Notes under the pieces: generated by a model
The model's database searches: none
What the model was told of the DNA's origin: nothing
Seen by the model: only the letters and a program-made list of their open reading frames with translations
Made by a program: the position numbers and the translations under genes
Part shown: piece by piece, positions 22,295-43,348 of the stretch
Position numbering within the stretch: the first letter of the stretch is position 1
Layout: each line of letters starts with the position of its first letter
Source of the DNA: an uncultured virus (IMG/VR IMGVR_UViG_3300027688_000004)
Lineage: Duplodnaviria > Heunggongvirae > Uroviricota > Caudoviricetes
Direction: 5' to 3' (one strand)
IMG/VR virus record: IMGVR_UViG_3300027688_000004
Length of the DNA: 64,000 nt

Positions 22295-23718
22295 AAGCAC
22301 CGAAGCTGTGGGTCCCACATACTTATCAGGACTCTGCAGTGCAGTTCCTGCATGAACGGACGAGTCTGAACAGGGAAGGCGCAGGGGGCGGGGCTCTCTT
22401 TCTGGACCCGGGGATGGGCAAGTCCAGCATCCTCCTTCAGTGGATGAAGGAGATGAAGTACTTCGGGATGGCCAGCCGCTTTCTGGTGATAGCCCCGTTG
22501 CGAGTTGTGTATAACGTCTGGCCGGACGAAGTGCAGGGCTGGACCAACTTCAGGGACCTCAGCTACAGCATCGTCCACGGCACAGAGTCTGTCCGGAAGA
22601 AGCGGCTCGCGCTGCCTACCACCATGCACCTGATCAACCGGGATGCAGTGACGTGGCTGGCGAAGCTGGTCGAGGGTCGGAAGAACCTGCCTTGGCAGGC
22701 AATCGTAATCGACGAAAGCACCAGCTTCAAAAACTGGGGTGCGGCTCGGTCAAAGGCTCTGCGGAAGCTGATCGATCGAATTCCGTACCGAGTGATTATG
22801 ACCGGGACCCCAGCACCTCGGAACCTAGCCGACCTGTTTCCTCAGGTCTGGCTGCTGGACCAAGGGAAGGCTCTTGGTGAGAACATCACCCGCTTTCGGG
22901 AGCATTACTGTATGCAGATCGGCGCGAGGGAGCAGAACAACTATCAGGTCCGGGACGACCGGGCAGACGCTATCCACCAGCGGATCAGTCACCTGACCCT
23001 CCGGCTGGACGCAAAAGACTACCTGTCCATGCCGGACATCACATACCATCAGGTAATGATCGATCTGCCGCCTGTCGCGAAGGCAGAATACGATCAGATG
23101 GAGAAGGATATGTTCCTAGCCCTCGCAGATGGCTCAGGAAGGGCTGCGGTCAACGCAGGCGCAAAGTATCAGGCTTGTAAACAGATCTCCAACGGCGGAA
23201 TCTATGGGCACGACAGGAGCATCCATGACTTGCACGAGGCAAAGACAGAAGCCTGCTTGGAAATCATTGACGAGCTGGGCGGAAAGCCAGTCCTCATCGC
23301 GTACCAGTACGAACATGACCTGCGCCGCCTGAAACGGGCAATCAAGGGCCTGCATGTGATCAAAGGTGGGATGAAGTCGGACGCAGTAACGCGGATCATC
23401 CAGGCATGGAACGAGGACAAGCTGGACCCGCCTTATCTGGCAGTCCAGCCTCAGGCCCTGTCATACGGGGTCAACGCTCAGCATGGGTCATGCCGGGACA
23501 TCATCTGGTACGGCCCATCCGATAACCTGGACACGGTGCTGCAGTTTGACTGCCGCATCCATCGACAGGGTATCGGATCGGGCGTACGGGTTCACCGGTT
23601 GTGCTGTAAGGGCACGATTGATGAAGTGATCTGGAGAAGGATAGATAAAAAGGAGGACGTGCAGTCAACTCTACTGCAGGTCCTCCGGGAATACGCTCAG
23701 GAGAAGCTGGGGCGTTAA
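22273..23718 (+). CDS. SNF2-family helicase
   Basis: DPGMGKS, IDES, TGTP, RIHRQG motifs. Confidence 0.9.
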   Translation: MVAGADVKAPKLWVPHTYQDSAVQFLHERTSLNREGAGGGALFLDPGMGKSSILLQWMKEMKYFGMASRFLVIAPLRVVYNVWPDEVQGWTNFRDLSYSIVHGTESVRKKRLALPTTMHLINRDAVTWLAKLVEGRKNLPWQAIVIDESTSFKNWGAARSKALRKLIDRIPYRVIMTGTPAPRNLADLFPQVWLLDQGKALGENITRFREHYCMQIGAREQNNYQVRDDRADAIHQRISHLTLRLDAKDYLSMPDITYHQVMIDLPPVAKAEYDQMEKDMFLALADGSGRAAVNAGAKYQACKQISNGGIYGHDRSIHDLHEAKTEACLEIIDELGGKPVLIAYQYEHDLRRLKRAIKGLHVIKGGMKSDAVTRIIQAWNEDKLDPPYLAVQPQALSYGVNAQHGSCRDIIWYGPSDNLDTVLQFDCRIHRQGIGSGVRVHRLCCKGTIDEVIWRRIDKKEDVQSTLLQVLREYAQEKLGR

Positions 23719-23915
23719 TCTAAGAAACAGACTTCGACAACGCCAATGTCACGCCAAGGGTGAAGAAGGATCATCCCTTCTATCTCCACGGCTATACCAA
23801 CCCCGTCCGCTGCGATCAGGCTGAAGGTTTGTGTCACGCACCGAATATCAACCCATGACACTTTCAACACAAAGGCTCGGTCCCCGCCAAGAAGCCTGTT
23901 CAGGTACTCACTCAT
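23715..23915 (-). CDS. Hypothetical protein, last gene of the minus-strand array
   Basis: Coupled to 23912..24139; converges with the helicase gene. Confidence 0.55.
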   Translation of the reverse strand: MSEYLNRLLGGDRAFVLKVSWVDIRCVTQTFSLIAADGVGIAVEIEGMILLHPWRDIGVVEVCFLD

Positions 23916-24139
23916 ATCTCCAACTCCTCTAAGTCTGTGGAATAGACCCGGTTCAGCGGGTCATCGTTCGGAGCTACGGTCAGCCGTACTCCGCCGTTCG
24001 TGTGGCACAAGCCGACGATCTTCACCATCGTTCCTGTGCTGTAGTCGAAATGATCTTCCTCCGTCAGCTTTGCAAACTGCCGTAGGACGGAGGCCATTCG
24101 GGTTCTCCAGCTACGCTGCTGATCATTAGTCTCGGTCAT
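23912..24139 (-). CDS. Hypothetical protein
   Basis: Overlapping, coupled ORF. Confidence 0.55.
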   Translation of the reverse strand: MTETNDQQRSWRTRMASVLRQFAKLTEEDHFDYSTGTMVKIVGLCHTNGGVRLTVAPNDDPLNRVYSTDLEELEI

Positions 24140-24452
24140 ACATCTCCTCTATCGGAAAACCACCTGAGAACTCAGGTGGGTAAAGTGGTCTGCCCTCCTC
24201 GTCCACGTTGGACCAAGAGAACCTCATCGCCCTCATCTTAACTGCGGTCTCATCAGACACTCTCCGACTGCGGGAGTAGTACAACGGCAGTCCGTCCTCC
24301 CAGATCTCGGTGCGGGTGAACCACTCACCCGAGGTCCGCAGTAGCTTCACTTGGTGACGGTATCGACAGCCTTGACTATCAATGGTTGACCAGAAGGTGG
24401 TCCACTGTCGGGGGTCGTGCGCTGTCTTGCTGACTGGGTTAAGTCTGGCCAT
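24126..24452 (-). CDS. Hypothetical protein
   Basis: RBS GGAG; overlapping ORF. Confidence 0.6.
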   Translation of the reverse strand: MARLNPVSKTAHDPRQWTTFWSTIDSQGCRYRHQVKLLRTSGEWFTRTEIWEDGLPLYYSRSRRVSDETAVKMRAMRFSWSNVDEEGRPLYPPEFSGGFPIEEMYDRD

Positions 24453-24478
24453 TCAGTTGTTCTCCGCTGAATTCTTGA

Positions 24479-24664
24479 TCATGGTTTTCTCCCCATCTTC
24501 TTGTACGCCTCTTCAATATCTTCCGCCAGTTTTGCTGACTCACGTTTGTCAGACTTGGCCAAGGCGCAGTCCGTAATTGCCCACCCAATGAAAACAATTA
24601 CCATCGCTAGGGCAATCCCCGGGATGAGCGGGGTTGGAAGTGAGGCCAGTTCATTCAGCAACAT
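24479..24664 (-). CDS. Small membrane protein
   Basis: Start MLLNE after AAGGAG; TM segment IPGIALAMVIVFIGWAI. Confidence 0.6.
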   Translation of the reverse strand: MLLNELASLPTPLIPGIALAMVIVFIGWAITDCALAKSDKRESAKLAEDIEEAYKKMGRKP

Positions 24665-24962
24665 TTGGTCTCTCCTTCCGTACGAGGGTGACCCCATCGA
24701 GGAATTCGATACGGGTCTGGTCCTTGAAGTCGATGTACCACCCGCCGCGCACAGCATAGACGCTGTACCCCAGGTTGAATTCCTGGGATGTCTGGTTCAT
24801 CCGCTTCTTCGTGGTGACCGTCATCCAGCCGCCGCTGTCCAGGATAATCTCAAACGGATTCCACCGGACGACCACAGTCTTGTGGTACTTCACACAGGTG
24901 TATCGGTCTGCATCCTCGAAGATGTCCGTACAGACACCTCCTGCCAACATTCCTCTCGTCAT
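24651..24962 (-). CDS. Hypothetical phage protein
   Basis: Preceded by leader repeat and RBS AAGGAGG. Confidence 0.75.
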   Translation of the reverse strand: MTRGMLAGGVCTDIFEDADRYTCVKYHKTVVVRWNPFEIILDSGGWMTVTTKKRMNQTSQEFNLGYSVYAVRGGWYIDFKDQTRIEFLDGVTLVRKERPNVAE

Positions 24963-25043
24963 CTCATCCTCCTTCTAAAGTTGTGAAGAACACGATCGAG
25001 GACCACCGCAGTGGTCCTCTGTCACACTCTCCGCTGCGGACTG

Positions 25044-25334
25044 TCAGTCCTTCCACTCCTCGAACCGCTTCATCGCCTGCAGTTCATCATCTTCATCGCT
25101 ACCCCAGCGGCAGTTCAGTGCCTGTTCGAGCTTGATCCCGCAGTACTCTTTGGCGTCTTCAACAGAGTCGAATGACTCCAGCACGTCAGAAGGGCTAAAG
25201 CACTCGACGATTGTATCTCCGCCCGCATCATAGTTTGCTTCGCAAGCGGCGTAGATATTATCGACCAGCTCGACCTGCTTGCGAGTCAACTCCGACAGGT
25301 CATCCACATACAACTTAATCGTGTCCGACTTCAT
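25044..25334 (-). CDS. Small acidic hypothetical protein
   Basis: RBS AGGAGGAG; TGA stop lies inside the repeat element. Confidence 0.75.
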   Translation of the reverse strand: MKSDTIKLYVDDLSELTRKQVELVDNIYAACEANYDAGGDTIVECFSPSDVLESFDSVEDAKEYCGIKLEQALNCRWGSDEDDELQAMKRFEEWKD

Positions 25335-25563
25335 TTGTTCTCCTCCTGTGAAAGTGTAAAAAGTCTCGGATACTTAGGCGATGACGAACCTTAAACCCAG
25401 TATCCCCGCTCGATGACCACTGGCTTAGAGACGATAGACCAGCGAAACTGCTTCTACCAAGTGCCCCCTCATTGTTGTGAGAGAGCGTAGACGCCATGCG
25501 GCTCTGACGGATACCGGATCGATTTGAGGAACCACCCTCAGGACGATGCAATCCTTTTTGATC

Positions 25564-25812
25564 TTAGAAGTCCAGCTCACCATCAAAGGCTTCCGCTTCG
25601 TCTTCTTCATCAGAGGGAAACGCCTCGTCTTGACAGGCTTGGCACATCCCGCTGATCGTATACTCCTTCCGCGACAGACTGTCAGAAAATACAGCTGCAG
25701 GACCTGAACACCAAGCACAGGTGTCGCTTCGAATTGACTCTTGTCGGTTGCTGCCCGAGATGGCGTTTATCTTTGCCTCGACTTCTGGTGACTTCTGTGT
25801 TGGCTTAGCCAT
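25564..25812 (-). CDS. Small Zn-ribbon-like protein with acidic tail
   Basis: CAWC...CQAC. Confidence 0.7.
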   Translation of the reverse strand: MAKPTQKSPEVEAKINAISGSNRQESIRSDTCAWCSGPAAVFSDSLSRKEYTISGMCQACQDEAFPSDEEDEAEAFDGELDF

Positions 25813-25981
25813 TGACGTTCCCCTTTAGGTGACGGGTTATGTAACACTTCGCAGCGTGAACGGACTTGACGGTAGTGGTGACATGGTCCGGAGACATGAC
25901 CCGGGTACATTCAGATAATCCGTAGTACCGGGACTGCATCGTATAGTGGATCCACCACCCCTTGTACTCGATTGTGATCAT
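25805..25981 (-). CDS. Hypothetical protein
   Basis: Start MITIEYK after AGGAG. Confidence 0.6.
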   Translation of the reverse strand: MITIEYKGWWIHYTMQSRYYGLSECTRVMSPDHVTTTVKSVHAAKCYITRHLKGNVNG

Positions 25982-26307
25982 CTGCTTTCTCCTGTAGCTT
26001 TGGCGATTGCCTGTCGTGCTCGGCATATCGCACAATCATGTGGCAGGCTGTGACCAGCTTTGCAAGTGCATGGTGGTGCGTTGAGAATAAAGCCAGTTTG
26101 CATGATGGCTTTCAGTGCCCCCAGCAATTCCGGCGCGGCAGCAAACAGGACTGCATCAGCCTCCTTCGGACAGAGTGCCACGAGGTCTCCGTTGAAAAAC
26201 CCATTAACGGTTCGTGGTGAATAGATACCGAACTGTTCTGGCTCATTTTCGATGAATGTACGGGCCACTTTTAACACATGGAGTGGCTTCGGTGACTGTT
26301 CAGTCAT
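25978..26307 (-). CDS. Hypothetical phage protein (AAAPELL motif)
   Basis: LFAAAPELLGALK...ARQAIAKATG, a common small phage protein motif; start MTEQ after AAGGAG. Confidence 0.75.
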   Translation of the reverse strand: MTEQSPKPLHVLKVARTFIENEPEQFGIYSPRTVNGFFNGDLVALCPKEADAVLFAAAPELLGALKAIMQTGFILNAPPCTCKAGHSLPHDCAICRARQAIAKATGESR

Positions 26308-26377
26308 TGTATTTCTCCTTCCAGGCGACACTGCCTGATCGAAGACCGGCGACTCTCCGGTCCTCTGTCTGAAAGTG

Positions 26378-27337
26378 TCAACCACCCGACATCTTCCGCA
26401 TGATACTCTTCGTCGGGCTATCCTGCCCTTTGTACAGCCCAGCAGTAGAGTCTCCCTTCATAAAGTCCCAGCCGGTACTGCCGATTGCGTTCTGCGCGGC
26501 GTCCAGCTTGAATCCTCCGAACGTATGAACGTCAGTCATTCCCTCGTTCAGTTTCTGCAACAGGTCGATCTTGCTGTTGCTCATGTCCTGCCAGAGATGG
26601 GCACAGAGGCCTGCTGACATCAGCTCCTTCGCCTTCCAGACGGGTTCAATCTCTTCTTCCGGGTCCACACCCAAACTACTGCAAACCTCCTTCCATCCGG
26701 CTTCTCCGGCCATGCCGATGTTCACTGCACAGATCGACCCGTGGTACCGGTACTCCGGGTTCCGCTCATGTTCCTCCATGTACTGGATCCGGACAAAGAG
26801 CCAGGTGTTATCGGCCGGAGGGTCATGGGTCGGCAGTTTTGTATCACAAACCCAGAGGTGCTCGTAATCCCCGTCCTCCAGCTCCGCACAGGCCGTCAGA
26901 GCCGTTTGAAACTTCGTTCTGAGTTCATCGTCGTCTAGGAACTCAGACGATCCTACGAGGTTGCCACAACCATCGCAGTCAGACGGGCCTTGCCGCTTGT
27001 ACTCGAAGGACCCGCAGCTTCGGCAGATTACCTTCCCTGCCTTCGCACAGTAGTCTTGGTTGATCTGATTGACCAGATCCTGTATTTCACCCAGCATGAT
27101 GTTGCCGTCAAGGACGGCGATCGTGCGAGGTTCATCCGGTAAACCGTGTTTGACGTAGTGCAGACAGTCCCCGTCCCGTACACCAATTTCCCCGATGAGA
27201 GCACCGACTGCGTCCGCACTTTCATCCGGGACCAGCAGGTAAGCTGCTTCCCAAGCAAGGGGGAAGTCTTTTTCATCTGGATGATCCGCCGCGTACTGCT
27301 TCATCTCTATGGCGGCTTCCACCATGTCCGTTTTCAT
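26378..27337 (-). CDS. Hypothetical protein with Zn ribbon
   Basis: CRSC...CDGC; start MKTD after AAGGAG and leader hairpin. Confidence 0.75.
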   Translation of the reverse strand: MKTDMVEAAIEMKQYAADHPDEKDFPLAWEAAYLLVPDESADAVGALIGEIGVRDGDCLHYVKHGLPDEPRTIAVLDGNIMLGEIQDLVNQINQDYCAKAGKVICRSCGSFEYKRQGPSDCDGCGNLVGSSEFLDDDELRTKFQTALTACAELEDGDYEHLWVCDTKLPTHDPPADNTWLFVRIQYMEEHERNPEYRYHGSICAVNIGMAGEAGWKEVCSSLGVDPEEEIEPVWKAKELMSAGLCAHLWQDMSNSKIDLLQKLNEGMTDVHTFGGFKLDAAQNAIGSTGWDFMKGDSTAGLYKGQDSPTKSIMRKMSGG

Positions 27338-27409
27338 TAGTCTTCTCCTTCTGTTGAAACTTAATAACCACAACACCGACCATCCGCAGATGGCCGGACT
27401 TGTGACTAC

Positions 27410-27781
27410 TCAGCGTGCCGGGCAGCCCATTGATTGTATCTCGACAGTACAACGGGTATGTGCAACGTGCTCACGGATCATGATAAGTTCTGGCTCTGTT
27501 CGGTCTTTTAGTACCTCAGCGATGACTGCTGCCTCCTCTGTGATCCTGGTGCCTATTAAGCCGCGATCTCTTGACCTCTTGTCAGGCTTCCCTGATCTGG
27601 TTTTGTCTCTGCCGCGAAACTGGATTCGAGCGTAGAACTGGTCTTCATCCTCCGGAACCTCACCGTAGTCATTGAATTCCACGTTGATCACTTCACAGAA
27701 TCCCCTCTGTATTTCCAGAGGAGGGTCAAAGAACACGCTGAATGAAACTGTTTTTACTATGTCGGTGATTGTGTTTTTCAT
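27410..27781 (-). CDS. Hypothetical protein
   Basis: RBS GGGAG. Confidence 0.65.
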   Translation of the reverse strand: MKNTITDIVKTVSFSVFFDPPLEIQRGFCEVINVEFNDYGEVPEDEDQFYARIQFRGRDKTRSGKPDKRSRDRGLIGTRITEEAAVIAEVLKDRTEPELIMIREHVAHTRCTVEIQSMGCPAR

Positions 27782-27853
27782 GTCTCTCTCCTACTCGTTG
27801 TTGATAGTACCCAACAATCCCCGTGCCGATCTCGCGGGGAAAGCAGGGGGCTT

Positions 27854-28270
27854 TCACAGAATCACACCCTCACCTTCGCATTTAGTGCAGTTGGGGTTTA
27901 TCGGCCAACCGCCGAATTCCAATTCTTCACCATCGTCGTTGCAGCATCCATCAGTCCAGCAGTGCTCGCATCCATGAGTGTTGTCCCATGTTTGCTTTCC
28001 GTCCGAGTCAGCGTCTTCTAAAGCCTGCCACCATTGATCCTTAGTGAACGGAAATTTTAGTTTATACGACCGATGCGCTACGTCACTTCCCTCGCAGTAT
28101 CCCCTGACAGTTACACAACCATCACCGTGATGGAAGCTGCATCCGCATTCGGTGTATTTGAAAACGCCGCAAGACACTTCGCTTTCAGCGTCTTTAGCGT
28201 CTATCCCCTCATCAGCGTCGTAGCATTTCACAGCAAGCTCCTGAATGCTGTGAATTAGTTCCTGTGCCAT
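27854..28270 (-). CDS. Acidic Cys-rich hypothetical protein
   Basis: Start MAQEL after GGAG and leader; CEHC and CTKCEGEG. Confidence 0.7.
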   Translation of the reverse strand: MAQELIHSIQELAVKCYDADEGIDAKDAESEVSCGVFKYTECGCSFHHGDGCVTVRGYCEGSDVAHRSYKLKFPFTKDQWWQALEDADSDGKQTWDNTHGCEHCWTDGCCNDDGEELEFGGWPINPNCTKCEGEGVIL

Positions 28271-28349
28271 TGTGATTCTCCAAATAGTGGTTTTGAAAGT
28301 TGTTAAGAACACAATCAGCAGATCACCGCAGTGAACTGCCGTTCTGGTC

Positions 28350-28982
28350 TCACCACTCTCTCCGGCCCTGACTGTCAAACTCATAGTCATTGGCGATTAT
28401 ACTTTCTCCCACTGCTTCATCACTGGTCAGGTACTCGTGCTCTTTTTCCAGATGCTGATACATCCAGTACATGAAGTCCCGCAGATATTCCTTCAGATCC
28501 TCGTCAGACGCATCTTCGTTGAACCCGTCTGTCTCGATCTCAGTACAGCCGGGATGGCTGTAGCGACCACGATGTTCTACTCGGGCAGTCAGTCGGTAGA
28601 AGTGAGCCTTCTGGAGTCGAGCCAAGTCGTCCGCAATACGATGCAGACCAGTGTCCATCGGAAACTCTTTCCGAACCGCTTTGGAGCTACCTTTCCTGTA
28701 CTCATATCGACCTTCGAAACAGGCTCCATCCCCCTGACTGGAAAAGCCGCTGAAGAAGATGCGAGGCTGACCCTCGATTGGTTCACCTTTCATGTTCTTC
28801 GCGGGTCGGTTGCTGATGTCAATACCGATCAGTTCCGCAGCAGTATTGATCCACTCGTAGGAGGATTCCCACCAGTCATGATCAAGATAGTTTCCATTCC
28901 CTCGATACCAGTCCCTGGCTCTTTCTTTTCCAAACTCGTCCAGCTCCTCATACTTGAAGACCTGGGTCTCCTTGGTTCTCAT
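28350..28982 (-). CDS. Conserved mobile-element protein (family often auto-annotated 'antitoxin of toxin-antitoxin stability system'; function unknown)
   Basis: F.YEEL....KERARDWYR, FSGFSSQGDGACFEG, YxxLEKEHEYLTSDEAV...IIANDYEF; recognised from memory. Confidence 0.7.
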   Translation of the reverse strand: MRTKETQVFKYEELDEFGKERARDWYRGNGNYLDHDWWESSYEWINTAAELIGIDISNRPAKNMKGEPIEGQPRIFFSGFSSQGDGACFEGRYEYRKGSSKAVRKEFPMDTGLHRIADDLARLQKAHFYRLTARVEHRGRYSHPGCTEIETDGFNEDASDEDLKEYLRDFMYWMYQHLEKEHEYLTSDEAVGESIIANDYEFDSQGRREW

Positions 28983-29065
28983 CGTCTTTCTCCTTCTAAA
29001 GTAAACCAAGTAAGTAAACACGAAAGAGAGTCACCGCAGTGACCCTCCATCCAGCTCACTCTGGC

Positions 29066-29623
29066 TCACTCTGGCTCAACCAGCGTATCGTCCGATACCC
29101 GATAAACCGGATACGGGGCAACCCCACTCTCAAACCAGTCGTGACCGAGGCAGTATGTCTTTGGTCCACCAGCACAGAATGTGTCCAGATTACCGGCACC
29201 CGGGACACATGGAGAGCAGAACTGAGCATAGGTGTAGTAAGGTGATTTGAAGACCCACAGGTTGTTATCTGAGGTGGTCTGAACGCTGTATCCGTCTTCA
29301 AACCAAGCGAAAGGCCCCGCTTCCTGAGCATCGCCCCACTCAATATCTCCGCTGTCCAGAACGGCCTGAGCGATCTCCTCAGCCGTTCGAGGATCGATGG
29401 ACCCATAGCACTCGATTGCCCTTTCAATGGCGGAGGCTAAACCTCCTTTCACCTCACTCCGCATTTCTGAAAAGCCCAGGTCCTCACCGTTTTCGTAGAT
29501 GGCATTGATTGCCTCTTGCTCGATGCTGTGCTGGCAGATCATGCCATACCGAATACCGGTCTCCCCATCTCGATTCACCGTACTCCCGGGGCTGGAGTAA
29601 TCTATCCCCGCATAGTCTGTCAT
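29066..29623 (-). CDS. Hypothetical phage protein
   Basis: Start MTDY after AAGGAG and leader; CSPCVPGAG motif. Confidence 0.75.
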   Translation of the reverse strand: MTDYAGIDYSSPGSTVNRDGETGIRYGMICQHSIEQEAINAIYENGEDLGFSEMRSEVKGGLASAIERAIECYGSIDPRTAEEIAQAVLDSGDIEWGDAQEAGPFAWFEDGYSVQTTSDNNLWVFKSPYYTYAQFCSPCVPGAGNLDTFCAGGPKTYCLGHDWFESGVAPYPVYRVSDDTLVEPE

Positions 29624-29898
29624 CGCTCTCTCCTTCAGAAGTTGTAAAGAACACAATCAGCAGCTCGTCGCAACGAACTGCCGTTCTGGTCTCTATACCC
29701 TCCCGCAGGTCACTTACGGCCTGTGTCACTCGGGAGCGGCCCATGATCTTGTAGGCTTTGCCCATCACAACACCCGATCATGGCAGGCTGTGAGCTTGGC
29801 TGACCTTGCCCATCGGTTTTTCTCTCCTTCTGCAGCTTTCGCGGCGGATGTAAAGAACACAATCAGCAGCTCGTCGCAACGAACTGCCGTTCTGGCCT

Positions 29899-30312
29899 CT
29901 ACTTCATCGCTTTCAGCTCAGCCATGTCTCGCTTGTATTCAGTGGCTTGGTACTGCTTCCGAGCGATCAGAGCAGCCTTCGTGTGCTTCTTTGCATCGAA
30001 GGTATCGATGAAAGCGAACATGTGCTTCTCTGCCTTGTGGCTGGTGTTGAAAGTGCTCGCCAAGTCAGGCCGGTACACTACTGTACCTAGAATATCAAAG
30101 ACGACACAGCGTTTCCCACGGGTCTTGTTGTGCAGATCGAGAGCAACACTCTCTGTGATGCCGAACAACAGCCCGTCTGCTAGGACTCGGGACGCTGTTA
30201 CCCGAGCGTGAAAACACTTCATTGTGTCCCGGTCAACATAGTGTGTCCGGCCTGACAGGTTTCGCTCCGCATTGTGATACGGGTCAGAACTCTCTGAACG
30301 ATACAGTCTCAT
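29899..30312 (-). CDS. Hypothetical phage protein
   Basis: Start MRLY after AAGGAGG and leader. Confidence 0.75.
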   Translation of the reverse strand: MRLYRSESSDPYHNAERNLSGRTHYVDRDTMKCFHARVTASRVLADGLLFGITESVALDLHNKTRGKRCVVFDILGTVVYRPDLASTFNTSHKAEKHMFAFIDTFDAKKHTKAALIARKQYQATEYKRDMAELKAMK

Positions 30313-30394
30313 TGTTTTCCTCCTTCTAAAGTTGTGAAGAACACGAACGACGACCACCGCAGTGGCCGTCTATCACACTCTCCGCCGCCGACTG

Positions 30395-31114
30395 TCAGAT
30401 CTTCTTTTCTACTGGTATGTCCTCAACTTCCGCAAGAAGCTGAAACCAGCCGAAGTCATAATAGAATGGGGTAGACCCGGGACTGTATTCCTCAGTCATG
30501 CCGCACCCTCTGGCCAGCTCTCTCAGCTTGCCAGAATCCAGATCCTCCAGCACAAGGATTGCATCGTACAATCGCTCATTCTCCATGAGGAAGCAGTCAC
30601 CACAGCCGCACAGATCAACATCCATGCCCCAATTCTTACACCACCGCTGCTTCGGGTCGTCTGGTACAGTGTCTCCGTCATCTGTGATCTCCGATTCCAG
30701 CGTCTGGATCATAGCCTTCCGTACCTCTGAGTCACCGTAATTATCCCATGACTCATTGATATCCTCCATCTCTCGCTCAGCTAGGTCTTGATCATCCAGC
30801 ACTGGATAGTTCTCCAGTGCGCGAGCCAGATCATAAGCTCTGTCCATCGCCTTCTCATCAGCCGGATCCACGATGATAATCTCGTACCATCCAGGACCCC
30901 AATGACCGAAGCAATGGACTTCCACCGTCTCAGACTCGCCACCTAGCTCTAGGAGAAAGGCGATGAAGTTGGAGTTCTCTAGGCACTCCGAGTCACGAGT
31001 CCGAGAGACTGGCATGAGATACCAGTCCTCCCGGCCATCAACCTCGATATGCTGATCGAAGCCGGTTGGGCGATGCTCCCCGTATCTGGGGAAGACGCCC
31101 TCATATTTGTCCAT
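30395..31114 (-). CDS. Acidic hypothetical phage protein
   Basis: RBS AAGGAG; FGHWGPGWYE motif; stop inside the repeat. Confidence 0.75.
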   Translation of the reverse strand: MDKYEGVFPRYGEHRPTGFDQHIEVDGREDWYLMPVSRTRDSECLENSNFIAFLLELGGESETVEVHCFGHWGPGWYEIIIVDPADEKAMDRAYDLARALENYPVLDDQDLAEREMEDINESWDNYGDSEVRKAMIQTLESEITDDGDTVPDDPKQRWCKNWGMDVDLCGCGDCFLMENERLYDAILVLEDLDSGKLRELARGCGMTEEYSPGSTPFYYDFGWFQLLAEVEDIPVEKKI

Positions 31115-31181
31115 CTGGTTTCTCCTTCTTAAAGGTTAAGTAAACACGAAAGAGAACCACCGCAGTGGCCCTCCATCCAGC

Positions 31182-31598
31182 TTACTCTTCGTCAGCCCAA
31201 GATGGATCCCAGAACTGCCTTCGTTCCCAGTGCTGGTCAGCCACTTCCTGCCAATCGACTTCACCAGTATCGCGGTAGTTCCGTAGTACCCCCAGTGCGT
31301 CATGCAGCGAGACCCATTTGTACTCGACATGGCTCTCCCCACTGCCTGGCCAGCATAACCGATCTGCATCCTCCTCAGGTATCTCGCAGAGCCTGCTTAG
31401 AGCAGTCTCTGGAGACAGGTTCTCATCCTCCAGCAGCAATGCCGCATGGCCTCCTATGCAACATGCTGAGCCACAGCCGTGGTTTGAATGCTCCCGATTA
31501 TTAGCTTGGTAGTTCATGTCGAACCCGCATTCTGACTGCGGGCTATTGTCCAGATGTTCCAAGTGATCAATGAGCTTCTGAACTCCCGGATGTTTCAT
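31182..31598 (-). CDS. Hypothetical phage protein (FDM...CGSACCIGGH motif)
   Basis: RBS AAGGAG and leader. Confidence 0.75.
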   Translation of the reverse strand: MKHPGVQKLIDHLEHLDNSPQSECGFDMNYQANNREHSNHGCGSACCIGGHAALLLEDENLSPETALSRLCEIPEEDADRLCWPGSGESHVEYKWVSLHDALGVLRNYRDTGEVDWQEVADQHWERRQFWDPSWADEE

Positions 31599-31694
31599 AA
31601 CTCTCTCCTTCTAAGTTTGTTGTGAAGAACACGAATGACGACCACCGCAGTGATCGTCTCTCACACTCTCCGCCGCCGACTGTCAGTTATCCTT

Positions 31695-32111
31695 CTACTG
31701 AACCACCCGGCAACCCTTCAAGGCCAGCCAGACTACATACCCCAGCTCAGTCTCTCCCTGCTCCACATCGTCCAGCCACATCTTCTTCGTGTACACTTTC
31801 GGTGGCAGTTCCGGCTGAGCCATGATCCACGCAACCACTTCGGCCATGTATTCAGTGCTGCAATGCCCTTGGACATCCTGTCCTCCACTGTTCGGATAAG
31901 ATGTACACCACTCCTCTCTGGCAAACACTGCGATCTCAGCAGTGTTCGATCCTTCTTCTCCACACTTCCGATTGTCTGGATCCAGCCGACTCCACTGACC
32001 GTAGTGGTCGCAGTAGTTGCCCGGCCCGAACTGGACAGATAGTTTATACCCGTTCTTAAATGTCAGTTGAAAACCTTTTCCATCTGAGATCCTAAACGCT
32101 TTCGTTACCAC
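31695..32111 (-). CDS. Hypothetical phage protein
   Basis: GTG start after AAGGAG; F.NGY.LSVQFG.GNYC motif. Confidence 0.7.
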   Translation of the reverse strand: MVTKAFRISDGKGFQLTFKNGYKLSVQFGPGNYCDHYGQWSRLDPDNRKCGEEGSNTAEIAVFAREEWCTSYPNSGGQDVQGHCSTEYMAEVVAWIMAQPELPPKVYTKKMWLDDVEQGETELGYVVWLALKGCRVVQ

Positions 32112-32197
32112 TTCAACTTCTCCTTCTGATTGACTGAGGGAAAACACGAACGACGACCACCGCAGTGGCCGTCTATCACACTCTCCGCCGCCGACTG

Positions 32198-32380
32198 TCA
32201 GATTCTGTTCTTATTCCAAGTGTGCAATGCAAAGACTAGCTCAGCCAGTCTTATTGCCAAGTGGGAGATCTCATCTGTGAACCAGTCAGGCACAAAGTCA
32301 TCCGGATTTGAATCGTCGATCTCGTAAAGCCGCTTCGCTATCTGGAGCTGCTCAGCTAAATTTGCTTCAGGATCCATCAC
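32198..32380 (-). CDS. Small hypothetical protein (MDPxANL type)
   Basis: RBS AAGGAG; stop inside the repeat. Confidence 0.65.
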   Translation of the reverse strand: MMDPEANLAEQLQIAKRLYEIDDSNPDDFVPDWFTDEISHLAIRLAELVFALHTWNKNRI

Positions 32381-32393
32381 TTGTCTCCTTTTT

Positions 32394-32573
32394 TTACCTA
32401 AACACTACGTTTGTAAAGAAATCCTCCACAGTACCAATCGCTTCAAGCTGTTCCAGCCTGTCAGCGACCATCTGTTCGTCGTCACACTGCCTTTCTTCAA
32501 GGACGTTCTCCCTCGCAAGGGACATCACGATCTCGATTGCGTCTTCAATTCTCATCGTCTTTCTCTTTCTCAT
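32394..32573 (-). CDS. Small acidic hypothetical protein
   Basis: RBS and leader; the start segment gagaaagacgatgag is tandemly duplicated. Confidence 0.65.
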   Translation of the reverse strand: MRKRKTMRIEDAIEIVMSLARENVLEERQCDDEQMVADRLEQLEAIGTVEDFFTNVVFR

Positions 32574-32659
32574 CGTCTTTCTCCTTCTAAAGTTGTGAAG
32601 AACACGAACGACGACCATCGCAATGATCGTCTATCACACTCTCCGCCGCCGACTGTCAG

Positions 32660-32911
32660 TTATGAATGGGTAGAGTACTTACCCTCTGAGTCCGGAACCC
32701 CACAGATGAAGTAGGTAGTCTTAAACTCAGGCCCGTCTCCTTCTTTGTAACAAGCCTCGATCTCGTTGTCCCTTCCCTGACTTAGAAGAAGGAAGGCATA
32801 TCTGGCTGAGCCCAATGCCCAGGTTGATAGGTAACCGATGCAGAGCTTTGCTTCTGCTGTAAATACAAAGTCATCCTTGAAGCTCATCTTGATAGTACGG
32901 TTGTGGTACAT
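32660..32911 (-). CDS. Hypothetical protein, first gene of the minus-strand array
   Basis: Start MYHN after AGGAG. Confidence 0.65.
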   Translation of the reverse strand: MYHNRTIKMSFKDDFVFTAEAKLCIGYLSTWALGSARYAFLLLSQGRDNEIEACYKEGDGPEFKTTYFICGVPDSEGKYSTHS

Positions 32912-33149
32912 GGTCTGTCTCCTGTTTGGGGTGAATGTCAAAACGCATACCGAGCTTCCCGCCGCCGACTGTCAGGTATTAGATTCCGCCTTCTGACTCA
33001 ACTAAGCCCGGGGATTTTTACCCTTAAAGAAAGAGAATATAACTCTAAGAATCTGACAGTGCGCTGCGGTTAACAGGATTGTGAAGATCGGACTAGCCGA
33101 TATGACACATGCGGGAACGTCATCACAACAACACGAACGGAGAACGAAC

Positions 33150-33851
33150 ATGAAGAACAGCGTAGCGAGATTTGACACAGCATCAGCAGACGACCGACCG
33201 GAACCGGGTCACCTGTGGTTCTGGCAGACGCCGGAGGAATGGATTGAGGACGAACCGCAGCAAACCCCGACACATCGACAACGCCGCGGCAATGTGAACG
33301 GCTTGGCATTGTTCGGCGAGGAGGCAGGCGAATTGATCGTCAATGACCTTGCTGAGCAACTGCCGACGGACGAGCAGCGATCCAGCGCGGAAACACTGGA
33401 CAACGCCGAAAGACGCCTCCCGGTTGAACGCCGTGTCCTGTCAGGCGATAGGGTAGAGCCTGCAGGATCACACGCTGTTAGTCTAGCCTTTTGGATCACC
33501 TACCAAACACTTGAAAAGGACATCCTCGCAGAGGTGTCAACCCATGACCGGGAGGACATCCGCCAAGAGTTTGCATTTCGAGTCTGGCAGAAGGCCTACA
33601 GCGATGAATTGAACCAGACAAGGACTTGGAGGAAAGAGCTAAGGCAGTCCGTCCGAAGACTGATCCGCCTCAGAGGCAGGGTAGCGAAGCACGACCAGAC
33701 CGCAGCCGGAACAGCAGACGAGGCAGCAGCACTTCGAGCGCACTCAATTGAGTCTAAGATCATGCAGACCGAACGGAACCACCTTGCCACCGTTGAGGCT
33801 CTGCAGCAGAAGGACAAACCCCGAAAACCACTGTTTGAGTTTGTAAACTAA
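33150..33851 (+). CDS. Hypothetical protein with a sigma-factor region 2-like segment
   Basis: DREDIRQEFAFRVWQK...TW resembles ECF sigma region 2; no clear region 4 HTH; RBS GGAG. Confidence 0.4.
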   Translation: MKNSVARFDTASADDRPEPGHLWFWQTPEEWIEDEPQQTPTHRQRRGNVNGLALFGEEAGELIVNDLAEQLPTDEQRSSAETLDNAERRLPVERRVLSGDRVEPAGSHAVSLAFWITYQTLEKDILAEVSTHDREDIRQEFAFRVWQKAYSDELNQTRTWRKELRQSVRRLIRLRGRVAKHDQTAAGTADEAAALRAHSIESKIMQTERNHLATVEALQQKDKPRKPLFEFVN

Positions 33852-33933
33852 GACGCTGACAGTCAAACGCGGAAAGCATGACAGACGATGAACCTTGCAA
33901 TTCGCAAGACATCACGAACGAACGACCGAGGAA

Positions 33934-34503
33934 ATGAAGATGAAGACCATCGACACTATCGCAAATGAGTTGATCCAGCGCGGAGTCGCGATTGGCCCGG
34001 CATACCAGCAGGCCGCGCAAGAATTCACAACGCAGGTTGAGCAGCATCATCAGGCAGAAGCGCAGAAGACGATTGACGACACCCGGAGGAAAGACGAGGT
34101 TGCTCAACACATTGTGCGGTTCCTTGACGGACGCATTCGACTGCGGGGATTGGTGGGAAACATGACTAGCCCTTCCCAGTCCCCTCGCTGCCTTGCTCTT
34201 GACGCGGGTATTGTCGGAGAACCTGCAAATTATTCCGACACAACCCGAGCATACTTCCCGCCCAAACTATGGTGCTTTGCCGTTGAAAAGACGCCGTGGT
34301 TCCTCAATCAGGCAGAATGCAATCAACTCTTGGCTTGCGAGGCAGCAGAACCCGGAGTCATCCTGAAAACGCTTGAAGCAATCGGATCAGATGCAGCCAT
34401 CGCAGAGTACAAAGCTGAGTGGAAAACTAAGAATGACGCAGGGTTGATCAAAGCATACGAAAAGGACATTATCAAAGCGAAAGCAATAAAGAAAACCAAA
34501 TAA
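33934..34503 (+). CDS. Hypothetical protein
   Basis: RBS GAGGA; preceded by a CTGACAGT-N5-GCGG motif; followed by a hairpin at 34524-34548. Confidence 0.65.
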   Translation: MKMKTIDTIANELIQRGVAIGPAYQQAAQEFTTQVEQHHQAEAQKTIDDTRRKDEVAQHIVRFLDGRIRLRGLVGNMTSPSQSPRCLALDAGIVGEPANYSDTTRAYFPPKLWCFAVEKTPWFLNQAECNQLLACEAAEPGVILKTLEAIGSDAAIAEYKAEWKTKNDAGLIKAYEKDIIKAKAIKKTK

Positions 34504-34919
34504 AGCAGCCTGACTTGATTCTAGCCCTCCAGCGCATCGCTGGAGGGCCTCAATCAATCCAGACACACAAGCACAGCCAGTTCCCGCATCGTTTGACCCT
34601 TGACCCCGTAACGCTGGACAGACAGACGAGCAGACAGACACTCAGCCCGACAAGCAGAACAAGGCAGACAGACAATCACGCTAGAAGGACTGGATTGACT
34701 GGATTAACTGGCCTGTTTTTCTGATCAAATCATGCAAAAAAGCAGCCTTTCTGGCCATTCTTCAGATGACACGACAGCACCACGCCCACCAGTCTAGCCA
34801 GCAGATGCAGCCCTGCCAGCATCGCCGGAAAAACACGAGGTAGGGAAGTTCAGCCAATCCGAACACCCCACCGCATTGACCCCTTTACCGCCTCCCGAGA
34901 CCCTTTGGTCTCCCATCCG

Positions 34920-35045
34920 GAATTTCCGGAGTTTTGAAAACACTAGAAATTGATACTGGGCCATGAAAAGCAGGTCGTACCCGAATTTCCGGAGTTTTGA
35001 AAACACTAGAAATTGATACTGGGCCATGAAAAGCAGGTCATACCG
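34920..35045. repeat. 63-bp tandem direct repeat (2 copies) in a non-coding convergent region
   Basis: gaatttccggagttttgaaaacactagaaattgatactgggccatgaaaagcaggtc at 34920 and 34983. Confidence 0.9.
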
Positions 35046-35211
35046 GCCCATCGGTAACTCCAGAAGTAATGTTTACCGTAATTCCTACCCATTCAGCACC
35101 TCTGGTCCCAATTCCGGAAGCTGGACTCTCCGGAAGGTCAGGATCTGCCGAGGAAGGGCCTGAATTTGAGCTGTACGGGCCTTGGGCCGATGGGATGAGT
35201 AAAGTATGGGC

Positions 35212-35244
35212 GTAAAGAAAGGCAGGTCCTGTTGGACCTGCCTT
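35212..35244 (-). terminator. Rho-independent terminator for the minus-strand csrA operon
   Basis: aaggcaggtcc/ggacctgcctt stem followed by TCTTT on the minus strand. Confidence 0.65.
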
Positions 35245-35289
35245 GGAGCTTTTCACTGATTTGAGTGTTTAATCACACTGAATACCGCC

Positions 35290-35463
35290 TCACTTCTTAT
35301 CCCCTTTTTCCTTCAGAAGCCTGATCTCTTTCCTGTCCACGGAGACATCCCGCGGGGCACAGATGCCCAGCCGAACTTTATCTCCTCTGATCTCGACCAC
35401 CATGATCGAGATGTTATTCCCGATGAGGATTTCCTCACTCACTTCCCTGCTCAGTACCAGCAT
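35290..35463 (-). CDS. csrA: Carbon storage regulator CsrA/RsmA homolog (57 aa; absent from the ORF track)
   Basis: Manual translation MLVLSREVSEEILIGNNISIMVVEIRGDKVRLGICAPRDVSVDRKEIRLLKEKGDKK. Confidence 0.9.
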   Translation of the reverse strand: MLVLSREVSEEILIGNNISIMVVEIRGDKVRLGICAPRDVSVDRKEIRLLKEKGDKK

Positions 35464-41794: not shown

Positions 41795-43348
41795 ATGAGT
41801 ACTTACATCTACGCGCGGGTTTCGACCTTCGACCAATACGTCAACGGTAACTCCATCGACGCGCAGTGCGAGATGTGCCTGAAGCACGCAGTGAACCACG
41901 GGATGGAGATGGGAACAGAATCAAACTGTGACCTGCCCGGGGTGTTTTTGGATGGGGGCAAGTCAGCTTATACCAAGAAGCTGGCGGAACGACCCGGGGG
42001 ATTGCGGCTGTTGACAGTGCTGCAGCCGGGAGATGTTGTTATCGCGACAGCAACCCATCGCCTGTTTCGCCGGATGGGCGACATGGTTGCCACAATGGAC
42101 CACTGGGTTCAGAACAAGATCTCGGTGAGGTTCACTGACTATCCGATGCTGAACACGGATACTGCCAACGGGAAGGCTATGCTGTACATCTTTGCGGTGA
42201 TTGCCCAGATGAAGTCTGAACTGACTTCGTCCCGGGTGAAAGAAGCGAGGGCGATGTCCAGAGAGAAGCCAAAAGTGCCTGTGCAGGTACAGCCGTCTGT
42301 CCCTTTGGATACGGCAGAGCACCTTATGACGAAAGACGTAGGGAGCATCATGCAGGAGATGCGGAGGGAAGAGACCCAGAGCCAGTTCAAAGGGACCGTC
42401 CGGGCGTACATCCGCGTCTCGACGAAAGAGCAGACGGTAGAACAGCAACGCCAGTGCATAGAGCGGATGATGCCCGACGACCTGCGAGGGGCACCCATCG
42501 AGTGGTACTCCGATGAGGGGGTGAGTGCCTTCAAAACAAAGATGGTGAAGCGGCCCTCCGGATCAAAACTTCTGGAGGACCTTGAGCCAGGTGACATTGT
42601 TGTGACATGGCGGCCAGACCGGATGTTCCGGTCTTTGCTCGACATGGCGAACACCACCGAGCTGATCCACCGGAAAGGGGCCTTCTTGCTCACTGTGGAG
42701 GGCGGGATCCGCACTGACTCACCGTTCGGTAAGACGATGGTCAGTCTGCTGAGCCTACTCGCGGAAGTCGAGTCTCAGGAGATCAGCCGGAGTACAAAGC
42801 AGGGCTTCTTTGTAGCGGTAGGGGTAAGCGCGAAAGCCCGGGCAGTGTTCATGCCGAAGTTCCTGAGTAGCATGAAGGACCATCACACGCAGAAGCACTT
42901 CTGCTTCAATCGGTTCTTCACGCAGGAAGACAAGTTCAACATGCACGTCCAGCTTTCCCTGACGGGAAAGCACTACCACAGCCTGAGTTCGGCTTGCCGG
43001 GTGATTAGTAACAAGTGGCTGCGGCGAAAAGGGCTTCCAAGTATGACCGGGATCGAAAGCGAAAGTGTTGGCAGCTACCTAGCCAAAGTTCGGGAGATGC
43101 AGCAGCAGCGATTTAGCGAGCGGCGCGAAGCTCTTATCCGGGTCTTGCGAAGACGAAAAGGAAGTGACCGAGTTGTATACCCAATCAACGTCACTTCCAG
43201 CCGTAGGGTGATACCTAATCAGGATCGATTCCTACGAGCGTCCCGCCGGATCTCAGGTCGGATAAAGAACAAGCAAGCCTTGATAGCGATCGCGATCAGA
43301 GGCTCTGACCTAGAGAGCAACCTCGACCTCATCAGGAGAGTTAGCTAG
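41795..43348 (+). CDS. Serine recombinase with two tandem resolvase-type catalytic domains
   Basis: Domain 1 YARVST.DQ...RPG...HRLFR; domain 2 YIRVST.EQ...RPSG...DRMFR; basic C-terminus. Confidence 0.85.
   Translation: MSTYIYARVSTFDQYVNGNSIDAQCEMCLKHAVNHGMEMGTESNCDLPGVFLDGGKSAYTKKLAERPGGLRLLTVLQPGDVVIATATHRLFRRMGDMVATMDHWVQNKISVRFTDYPMLNTDTANGKAMLYIFAVIAQMKSELTSSRVKEARAMSREKPKVPVQVQPSVPLDTAEHLMTKDVGSIMQEMRREETQSQFKGTVRAYIRVSTKEQTVEQQRQCIERMMPDDLRGAPIEWYSDEGVSAFKTKMVKRPSGSKLLEDLEPGDIVVTWRPDRMFRSLLDMANTTELIHRKGAFLLTVEGGIRTDSPFGKTMVSLLSLLAEVESQEISRSTKQGFFVAVGVSAKARAVFMPKFLSSMKDHHTQKHFCFNRFFTQEDKFNMHVQLSLTGKHYHSLSSACRVISNKWLRRKGLPSMTGIESESVGSYLAKVREMQQQRFSERREALIRVLRRRKGSDRVVYPINVTSSRRVIPNQDRFLRASRRISGRIKNKQALIAIAIRGSDLESNLDLIRRVS

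What the first reader, a model, noticed from the sequence alone, without database searches (positions are those of the whole stretch)
24968..32660. Eleven covarying UGCG-loop hairpin leaders punctuate a 9-kb array of small unknown genes
Seen: in front of most genes of the minus-strand array there is a 9-11 bp hairpin whose 4-nt loop is invariant (CGCA on +, UGCG on the coding strand). Loops are at 25007, 27385, 28327, 29035, 29669, 29875, 30358, 31161, 31646, 32161 and 32619. The stems differ in sequence but keep pairing, e.g. gaggaccac/gtggtcctc, ccgaccatc/gatggccgg, cagcagctcgt/acgaactgccg, gagagtcac/gtgaccctc. Nearly every + strand mismatch is A-C, which is a G-U (G-T) wobble only on the minus strand, so the structure is selected on the coding strand. 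It is usually followed by U(U/C)GUGUU and then the RBS. A variant with a different loop lies at 26341-26365. Inference: a gene-by-gene cis element that I do not recognise. Candidate roles are endoribonuclease processing or stabilising sites (compare the RNase III sites of the T7 early region), an antiterminator or translational-regulator binding site, or a single-strand DNA signal.
Basis: partly seen in the sequence, partly recalled or inferred. Interest (0 to 1): 0.88.

Follow-up and report, generated by a model that had tools for sequence, protein, structure and literature searches.

The report
Repeated RNA hairpins split phage operon
An uncultured freshwater phage and its relatives put the same long, precisely shaped RNA hairpin in front of about half the small genes of one operon, most likely as cutting and stabilising sites for the host enzyme RNase III, as phage T7 does; we found no match in the Rfam library of RNA families, and cutting is not yet shown.

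Summary
All 11 UGCG hairpins are at the stated coordinates (shuffles: mean 0.07). The 26341 variant is a twelfth member. I found 71 distinct copies in the same array of related 65-68-kb phages, whose host is probably a planctomycete. Over 58 aligned copies, 93% of cells pair, 19 of 22 pairs show compensatory change, and G-U outnumbers A-C 254 to 7, so it acts as RNA. The loop is conserved (64 of 71), not invariant. There is no Rfam match. A separate directional box, probably a phage promoter, ends at the foot of 35 of 71 copies. Best reading (about 50%): T7-like host RNase III processing and stabilising sites. The lower helix fits the published half-site rules, but only suggestively (permutation p about 0.06), and two scoring methods disagree on the cut site. 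They are not terminators. Genes are gained, lost or moved at these units, as at PeSLs. Earlier scan notes describe analogous arrays on other DNA; none matched this sequence.

The parts
23715..32911 (-). Variable array of about 21 small ORFs, mostly of unknown function, converging on the polA / VRR-NUC / SNF2 block
   Evidence: gene content differs among relatives while the order is largely kept
32593..32648 (-). Hairpin 1 (type A, UGCG loop at 32619-32622), before ORF 32394-32573
   Evidence: (67 bits)
32135..32190 (-). Hairpin 2 (type A), before ORF 31695-32111
31620..31675 (-). Hairpin 3 (type A), before ORF 31182-31598
31135..31190 (-). Hairpin 4 (type B, no upstream box), before ORF 30395-31114
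30332..30387 (-). Hairpin 5 (type A), before ORF 29899-30312. Candidate cuts: basal register 30384|30383 (5' arm) and 30334|30333 (3' arm); internal-loop register 30348|30347
   Evidence: registers inferred
29848..29904 (-). Hairpin 6 (type C, one extra base), heading a 206-bp unit with only an 11-codon ORF behind its RBS; relative L040 lacks this unit
29642..29698 (-). Hairpin 7 (type C), before ORF 29066-29623
29009..29064 (-). Hairpin 8 (type B), before ORF 28350-28982
28300..28356 (-). Hairpin 9 (type C), before ORF 27854-28270
27359..27414 (-). Hairpin 10, before ORF 26378-27337
26324..26382 (-). Hairpin 11: variant with a 7-nt loop and the same 9-bp stem, 2x2 loop and lower helix, before ORF 25978-26307
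   Evidence: (19 bits, E 0.011)
24981..25036 (-). Hairpin 12 (type A), before ORF 24651-24962
32959..32974 (-). Upstream box TGACAGT-N5-GCGG at the head of the array, with no hairpin behind it (putative phage promoter)
   Evidence: same position in relatives
32643..32658 (-). Box abutting hairpin 1
32185..32200 (-). Box abutting hairpin 2
31670..31685 (-). Box abutting hairpin 3
30382..30397 (-). Box abutting hairpin 5
28362..28377 (-). Box with one mismatch, upstream of hairpin 9
25669..25684 (-). Box inside ORF 25564-25812, with no hairpin
25031..25046 (-). Box abutting hairpin 12
33054..33069 (+). Box heading the divergent gene 33141-33851
   Evidence: same place in L199
33857..33872 (+). 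Box heading the divergent gene 33934-34503
   Evidence: same place in L199
33141..33851 (+). Clade-conserved helical protein with a weak resemblance to sigma-70 region 2; candidate reader of the box (a lead only)
   Evidence: present in 5 of 5 related records; weak sigma hits; no Pfam or PDB sequence match

Best explanation
The units are RNA processing and stabilising hairpins in the polycistronic transcript of a variable (probably early) operon, read by the host's RNase III as in the T7 early region. SHOWN: the hairpin exists as a conserved coding-strand RNA structure of fixed geometry (pairs numbered k from the loop: 9-bp stem k1-9, 2x2 loop k10-11, lower helix k12-24). It ends 3-23 nt before the SD core, is confined to this operon and is kept across the clade. 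INFERRED: the lower helix is one RNase III half-site (11 bp, k12-22, plus the two pairs between the cuts, k23-24). A cut at its foot would give one- or two-gene mRNAs. A 3'-arm cut leaves the upstream message capped by the whole hairpin and frees a short A/C-rich leader, as in T7; a 5'-arm cut gives a message that starts with the hairpin. INFERRED: a phage-specific promoter box in front of half of the units starts transcripts at the same foot, so both routes give hairpin-protected messages. The UGCG tip is a stable cap (UNCG/NGNN type; recalled) and possibly a secondary contact. Recombination between units gains, loses and moves genes as a by-product.
For: Structure: 58 distinct copies align without gaps; 93.3% of cells pair against 69.6 +/- 0.9 in 500 shuffles and 36-47% in slid registers; 19 of 22 pairs have two-sided changes. 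Size: the hairpin has 24 positions, the duplex length scored for E. coli substrates, and RNase III binds about 22 bp (PMC6212723); T7 R1.1 is a 49-nt stem cut on one strand (PMC8708148). Half-site rules (PMC1540722; PMC3074117; +3G in PMC9291653) are best met, of 33 register-orientation options, with pb2 at k20. There A-U/U-A holds in 66 of 67, 5' G at pb1 in 50 of 67, non-G-C at pb4 in 56 of 67 and 3' G at the distal box in 60 of 67. Pairing falls from 46 of 67 at k24 to 23-30 of 67 at k25-30. Loop variants keep the geometry, as expected if bacterial RNase III ignores loop sequence. The hairpin consensus is constant across lineages while the upstream box changes by lineage, which points to a conserved host reader for the hairpin. 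No RNase III or dsRBD family was hit among 77 window ORFs. The likely host phylum has RNase III in 40 of 41 genomes, with both dsRBD glutamines in 18 of the 20 sequences extracted from 30 loci. L199, found by a helicase search and not by hairpin pattern, has 5 copies.
Against: No transcript ends could be mapped. The basal-register fit is only suggestive: p = 0.06-0.07 when helix columns are permuted. The 5 type-A copies among the 9 window copies in standard register have G-C at pb4, a catalytic antideterminant in E. coli. No duplex continues below k24, so only one half-site exists. The E. coli in vivo matrix prefers another register, a cut in the internal loop: 25 of 58 copies reach the published -25.5 threshold against 8.8% of threaded controls, but only 1 of 8 window copies does, and that register breaks the pb2 rule (G-C in 45 of 58). 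Mean scores are only about 1 SD above controls. RNase III alone does not explain why 64 of 71 loops are UGCG or why k3 is C-G in about 64 of 67. The copies are related, so the counts are not independent, and the host is inferred.
Confidence: 0.5

Rival explanations
1. Uncut protective or insulating hairpins. The box is a promoter whose start lies at the foot of the helix, so the hairpin is a 5'-terminal stabiliser; where no box is present it insulates the RBS from upstream RNA.
For: The box also heads three hairpin-free units in both directions. A hairpin at a processed 5' end stabilises B. subtilis mRNA (PMC11780869 passages).
Against: 36 of 71 copies have no box. Stability alone does not need a never-paired k11, an A-U at k12, A-U/U-A at k20 or a wobble-rich k14-17. 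The promoter role of the box is itself inferred.
Confidence: 0.2
2. Binding site for a phage or host protein (translational regulator, antiterminator or dsRBD protein) that reads the UGCG loop and the internal loop without cutting.
For: The loop is UGCG in 64 of 71 copies, with G at loop positions 2 and 4 in all 68 tetraloops, and k3 is nearly always C-G. The closing pair is U-A or U-G in 22 of 58, so extra-stable cUNCGg thermodynamics (recalled) cannot be the whole reason. Several small clade-conserved proteins of unknown function lie in or next to the array.
Against: Three copies have 5- or 7-nt loops yet keep the helix geometry. No RNA-binding family was found among them. The phage CsrA has no tblastn hit in the four related complete records. 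The distance to the SD varies from 3 to 23 nt, which argues against steric control of the RBS.
Confidence: 0.2
3. PeSL-like recombination cassettes whose main role is gene exchange, the RNA fold being incidental.
For: Against relative L040, the window has an extra 206-bp unit bounded by two type-C hairpins, and a 138-aa gene sits between different hairpins in the two phages. Several block ends in G004/G005 and L199/G002 fall at units. Five type-A units are 80-92% identical to their reference copy over 92 nt.
Against: Compensatory changes lower the sequence identity that recombination needs. Other breakpoints lie away from hairpins. Gene order is largely colinear.
Confidence: 0.05
4. Single-stranded or cruciform DNA signal (N4-type hairpin promoter, attC-like site), or intrinsic terminators.
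For: The upper stems also fold as DNA, and 9 of the hairpins pass a loose terminator scan.
Against: G-U 254 against A-C 7 on the coding strand. The lower helix mostly fails with DNA energies. The 8 nt after the upper stem hold at most 5 U (3 U in 34 of 62) and are paired in the covarying lower helix. No RNA polymerase or tyrosine integrase family was found among the scanned ORFs.
Confidence: 0.05

Closest known systems
RNase III processing signals of the phage T7 early transcript (five sites; R1.1)
   Same: Intergenic hairpins of about 50 nt with an internal loop, repeated between the genes of a polycistronic phage operon. A one-strand cut can leave a protective 3' hairpin (PMC3867540 and PMC8708148 passages). 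The lower helix matches the minimal half-site rules.
   Different: Up to 12 copies per operon, all of one sequence family with a shared tetraloop. The best half-site lies below the internal loop, not between it and the tetraloop. Half of the copies are fused to a promoter-like box. Different phage group and probably a planctomycete host. Cleavage is not shown.
PeSL (promoter-early stem-loop) cassettes of T4-type phages
   Same: Composite intergenic units (stop codon, promoter-like box, stem-loop, SD) in a hyperplastic region of ORFans, with gene gain and loss at the units (PMC2839356 passages, PMC4122927 part 1).
   Different: PeSLs have sigma-70 consensus promoters and G-C stem-loops that act as terminators and lie within or over the promoter. 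Here there is no sigma-70 excess (6 found, 7.5 expected) and no U-tract, and the hairpin is a long covarying two-storey helix downstream of the box.
SPO1 host-takeover module
   Same: A terminal cluster of 24 small early genes for which RNase III cleavage is mentioned (secondary mention in PMC3896407).
   Different: I could not read the primary description, so its site structure was not compared; different phage family and host.
Yeast Rnt1p substrates ([A/u]GNN tetraloop hairpins)
   Same: An RNase III substrate defined by a tetraloop with G at position 2 (PMC3867540 passages); UGCG fits UGNN.
   Different: Eukaryotic enzyme. The equivalent register (cut 14-16 bp from the loop) scores poorly on the bacterial matrix, and bacterial enzymes tested in vitro ignore the loop.

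Membership tests
Any Rfam family | Match at the gathering score | tested here: not met
   0 hits in the window; 7 weak hits, all far below gathering, in 23700-35400
Bacterial RNase III processing site (T7 type) | Intramolecular duplex of about 22 bp with at least one 11-bp half-site | tested here: met
   22 pairs over 24 positions; lower helix k12-24
Bacterial RNase III processing site (T7 type) | A-U/U-A at proximal box position 2, G at position 1, no G-C at position 4, G in the distal box | tested here: inconclusive
   Basal register 66, 50, 56 and 60 of 67, all three pb rules in 39 of 67; permutation p 0.06-0.07; 5 of 9 window copies break pb4
Bacterial RNase III processing site (T7 type) | Score on the E. 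coli in vivo pair matrix | tested here: inconclusive
   Best register is the internal loop: 25 of 58 pass -25.5 against 8.8% of controls (best of seven registers: 28 of 58 against 22%); 1 of 8 window copies passes
Bacterial RNase III processing site (T7 type) | RNase III-dependent cut with 5'-monophosphate ends | not testable with these tools
   The only RNA run is low-depth contigs
Bacterial RNase III processing site (T7 type) | Host encodes RNase III | tested here: inconclusive
   40 of 41 genomes of the inferred host phylum do; the host itself is inferred
PeSL | Sigma-70 consensus promoter in each unit | tested here: not met
   No excess of sigma-70 matches; the box is a different, lineage-specific motif
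PeSL | Stem-loop acts as a terminator | tested here: inconclusive
   No U-tract (at most 5 of 8) and the tail is paired; termination was not assayed
PeSL | Gene gain or loss with breakpoints in the units | tested here: met
   L040 against the window; partly G004/G005 and L199/G002
Rnt1p-type tetraloop substrate | [A/U]GNN tetraloop | tested here: met
   65 of 71 copies are UGNN
Rnt1p-type tetraloop substrate | Cut 14-16 bp from the loop by a loop-reading dsRBD | not testable with these tools
   No end data; the register scores poorly on bacterial rules
Intrinsic terminator | G-C hairpin followed by an unpaired U-tract | tested here: not met
   3 U in 34, 4 in 16, 5 in 8 and at most 2 in 4 of 62 copies; tail paired with covariation

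The most novel reading that the evidence does not exclude
RNase III cuts both arms at the foot and excises each unit as a free, stable hairpin of about 50 nt with a 2-nt 3' overhang and a conserved UGCG tip. The operon would then also be a host transcript for up to a dozen copies of a small decoy or effector RNA (pre-miRNA-like cropping in a phage), or the host enzyme reads the tetraloop as yeast Rnt1p does. The gene-free 206-bp unit between hairpins 6 and 7, and the loop conservation that bacterial RNase III rules do not explain, are compatible with this.
Probability: 0.12. Interest if true: 0.85.

Novelty: new variant of a known kind. Interest (0 to 1): 0.56.

Why it matters
It defines a structured RNA family with no Rfam match, with 71 natural variants and strong covariation: in effect a natural mutagenesis of one cis element. 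If these are RNase III sites, they give the substrate rules of an enzyme from a poorly studied phylum (probably Planctomycetota) and show T7-like processing evolved as a modular, exchangeable cassette fused to a private promoter. If the loop proves to be read, or the hairpins are excised, the mechanism would be new for bacteria. The 56-nt unit is small and can be tested directly in vitro.

Tried and rejected
Rfam at gathering and E-value thresholds: no family. Cultured phages: no match to the unit by blastn or to the capsid protein by tblastn. GTDB pattern scan: 116 matches, none forming the family hairpin; model R1 found 0 hits in 150 planctomycete genomes and none in 100 kb around the G394 prophage. 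5 of 21 metagenome loci and 5 of 10 first viral loci were chance pattern hits; the five TCTG 'hairpins' of L002 are a coding repeat. A single-sequence helicase search returned four 25-39% relatives without arrays. RNA run X1 (share 0.06): 7 short contigs that cannot show ends or levels. An anti-SD switch after a cut in the loop: SD accessibility 0.33 against 0.36 with a shuffled arm, so nothing specific. Phage CsrA as reader: no hit in four relatives. A virion RNA polymerase motif in seven large ORFs: none convincing. Sigma identity of 33141-33851: Atlas 0.92 with only 105 of 256 features shared, Foldseek E >= 1, VIA Z 5.5-6.4 for sigma chains below unrelated helical bundles, no Pfam or PDB sequence hit, so a lead only. 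Atlas on conserved ORF 24126-24452: nothing above 0.78. Host 16S leader-trailer helices: one of four planctomycete genomes has GAGUGUGUGAG in the helix, like the phage 5' arm; this is post hoc and boxC-type sequence is widespread (PMC10250234 passages), so it is not used as support. An early idea that the 2x2 loop is the overhang zone, or that the cut is at the hairpin centre, got no support. No R-scape was available. Literature searches that found no description of this element. The sequence files of the 10,006-candidate viral RNA catalogue (PMC10690425) could not be read (files 1, 2, 4 and mmc1-3 not searched), so an unnamed entry there is not excluded.


Full report
CONTEXT. The window is 64 kb of a 68,474-bp phage contig; record G001 matches its ends at 97-100% protein identity. 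It encodes polA, VRR-NUC, an SNF2 helicase, a primase-polymerase, a double resolvase, CsrA and a virion block. The minus-strand array (23715-32911) holds about 21 small ORFs; only one has a Pfam family. No cultured phage matches the capsid protein. A prophage with syntenic virion genes (23-50% identity) lies in a 352-kb contig of a Planctomycetota genome, 1 strong hit among 401 searched. The phage CsrA is 63% identical to that of a Phycisphaerae MAG and 48% to that of a gammaproteobacterium. A planctomycete host is therefore likely but inferred. 'Early' is inferred from layout.

OBSERVATION. In the array, 11 of 41 minus-strand hairpins have this loop; shuffles give mean 0.07 and maximum 2. Folding shows that each is the tip of a longer hairpin. 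Three type-C copies carry one extra base. A covariance model finds the 11 copies (36-73 bits) and the 26324-26382 variant (19 bits); apart from reverse-strand echoes, no other hit in the window exceeds 14 bits. The units precede 11 of the 21 ORFs and one 11-codon ORF.

RELATIVES. Pattern scans of IMG/VR gave five contigs with 6-9 copies each; two of them (G003, G006) have identical hairpin sets. 16 of 21 metagenome loci carried true copies. None of 116 GTDB matches did. The four complete records are a syntenic clade, with core proteins about 40-80% identical to the window's and the array in the same place. A helicase-alignment search, blind to hairpins, returned 6 contigs. Five were those already found, and the new one, L199, has 5 copies.

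COVARIATION. 58 distinct standard-register copies align without gaps. Over 22 pairs, 93.3% of 1276 cells pair (shuffles 69.6 +/- 0.9; slid registers 36-47%), 19 pairs have two-sided changes, and the covariation score is 0.70 against 0.26. Caveats: the copies are related; pairing of k1-9 and k12-13 and the UGCG loop were selection criteria; the search patterns enrich one subtype; this is not R-scape. Pairing at k18-24 was not selected for and covaries (for example k18 A-U 20, U-A 16, C-G 9; k20 A-U 45, U-A 12). G-U cells outnumber A-C 254 to 7, and the lower helix mostly fails with DNA energies, so the structure is RNA on the coding strand. With loop variants and L199 added there are 71 distinct copies: UGCG 64, CGCG 2, GGUCA 2, UGAG 1, CGAG 1, AGAGUCG 1. 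In the 67 standard-register copies, k11 is never Watson-Crick, k9 is G-C or C-G in 66, k12 is A-U in 67, k16 has a 3' G in 65 and k20 is A-U/U-A in 66. Pairing falls to 23-30 of 67 beyond k24. The SD core lies 3-23 nt after k22.

A SECOND ELEMENT. TGACAGT-N5-GCGG occurs 9 times exactly in the window, always on the coding strand: before five hairpins, inside one ORF, at the head of the array and before two divergent plus-strand genes. Relatives have lineage-specific versions (TACAGT-N6-CGG, GCAGGT-N6-CG) at equivalent places. It precedes 35 of 71 hairpins, and its conserved G falls at k21-28, the foot of the helix. I read it as a -10-like hexamer, a spacer and a C|G start, that is a phage promoter (inference, about 60%); an activator site or RNA box is not excluded. 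The divergent gene 33141-33851 is present in 5 of 5 related records and weakly resembles sigma region 2, but no test was significant.

MECHANISM. A hairpin consensus that is constant across lineages while the box drifts suggests a conserved host reader. No RNase III or dsRBD family was hit among 77 ORFs (about 4.4 kb of the genome lies outside the window and was not scanned). RNase III is present in 40 of 41 planctomycete genomes. I tested the RNase III reading in two ways.

First test: biochemical half-site rules from PMC1540722 (parts 2-3 of 7 and passages) and PMC3074117 (passages). Of 33 options, pb2 at k20 fits best (66, 50, 56 and 60 of 67 for four rules). This makes k12-22 the 11-bp half-site and k23-24 the pairs between the cuts, exactly where pairing ends. 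Permuting helix columns gives p 0.06-0.07, and the five type-A window copies have the inhibitory G-C at pb4.

Second test: the in vivo E. coli matrix (PMC6212723 Table S4). The best register puts a cut inside the 2x2 loop: 25 of 58 pass the published threshold, against at most 3 in other registers and 8.8% of threaded controls. But only 1 of 8 window copies passes, pb2 is G-C in 45 of 58, and my handling of loop positions was ad hoc. The two tests disagree on the site, so membership is inconclusive. A cut in the loop would free a pyrimidine-rich arm and lower predicted SD accessibility (0.46 to 0.33), while a basal cut leaves it unchanged (0.48); this is a mild argument for the basal register. 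The only RNA run was uninformative.

RIVALS. An uncut 5'-terminal stabiliser fits the box-to-foot alignment, but not the 36 box-less copies or the fixed internal geometry. A protein-binding site fits the loop conservation, which E. coli and Aquifex RNase III do not need, but not the 5- and 7-nt loop variants. Terminators fail on the U-tract. Recombination at the units is real: against L040 the window has an extra 206-bp unit between two type-C hairpins, and a 138-aa gene has moved between units. Other breakpoints lie elsewhere and gene order is mostly colinear, so I take it as a by-product.

KNOWN SYSTEMS. It works like the five T7 early processing signals (PMC3867540 and PMC8708148, passages) and is organised like PeSLs (PMC2839356 passages; PMC4122927 part 1 of 3). 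It fails the PeSL sigma-70 test. There is no Rfam match. Eight literature searches found no description, but most subscription papers are not held and the sequence files of PMC10690425 were unreadable. PMC9291653 was read in parts 1-2 of 4; PMC3896407, PMC11780869 and PMC10250234 as passages. UNCG stability is recalled, not from a call. The scan's own notes had no sequence look-alike but list analogous arrays in other phages; my RNase III and PeSL readings were stated before I saw them.

VERDICT. It is most likely a new variant of T7-type RNase III processing and stabilising sites fused to a private promoter. Cleavage and its position are unproven, and the conserved loop is unexplained. Interest 0.56.

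Noticed in passing
window 34917-35042: Two 63-nt direct repeats (97% alike), next to a CAGA/GACA-rich non-coding stretch at 34600-34720; possibly an origin or genome-end region. G002, G004 and G006 begin or end near the equivalent region.
   Followed up: no
window 35219-35244: Perfect 11-bp hairpin between converging regions, probably a bidirectional terminator.
   Followed up: no
window 41795-43348 (+): 517-aa serine recombinase with two resolvase domains, about 50% identical in four relatives.
   Followed up: no
window 35290-35463 (-): Phage-encoded CsrA, with no hit in four related complete records; closest of five tested genomes was a Phycisphaerae MAG.
   Followed up: partly
window 32984-32994 (-) and the same place in G002, G004, G006, L199: A conserved purine-rich AGAA(G/A)GCGGA motif lies a few to 10 nt upstream of the first box at the head of the array; unexplained.
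   Followed up: no
window 29699-29847 (-): Unit between hairpins 6 and 7 has an RBS and only an 11-codon ORF; absent from relative L040.
   Followed up: partly
window 27790-27850 and 25340-25520 (-): Intergenic regions before ORFs 27410-27781 and 25044-25334 fold into other hairpins that are not of this family.
   Followed up: no
window 23912-24452 (-): Two small ORFs near the end of the array are kept in all complete relatives and in L048, unlike most array genes; function unknown.
   Followed up: partly
G394:C22, about 190000-223000: Prophage in a Planctomycetota genome with virion genes syntenic to this clade, without these hairpins in the 100 kb scanned.
   Followed up: partly
G002 (L173:1030-1085 and L176:8197-8252): The record carries the same hairpin unit near both ends and a tandem-repeat gene in the array; it may be terminally redundant or misassembled.
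   Followed up: no
window 7964-9582 (+): Papain-like peptidase (weak Pfam hit) and thioredoxin-fold genes among the virion and lysis-region genes.
   Followed up: no
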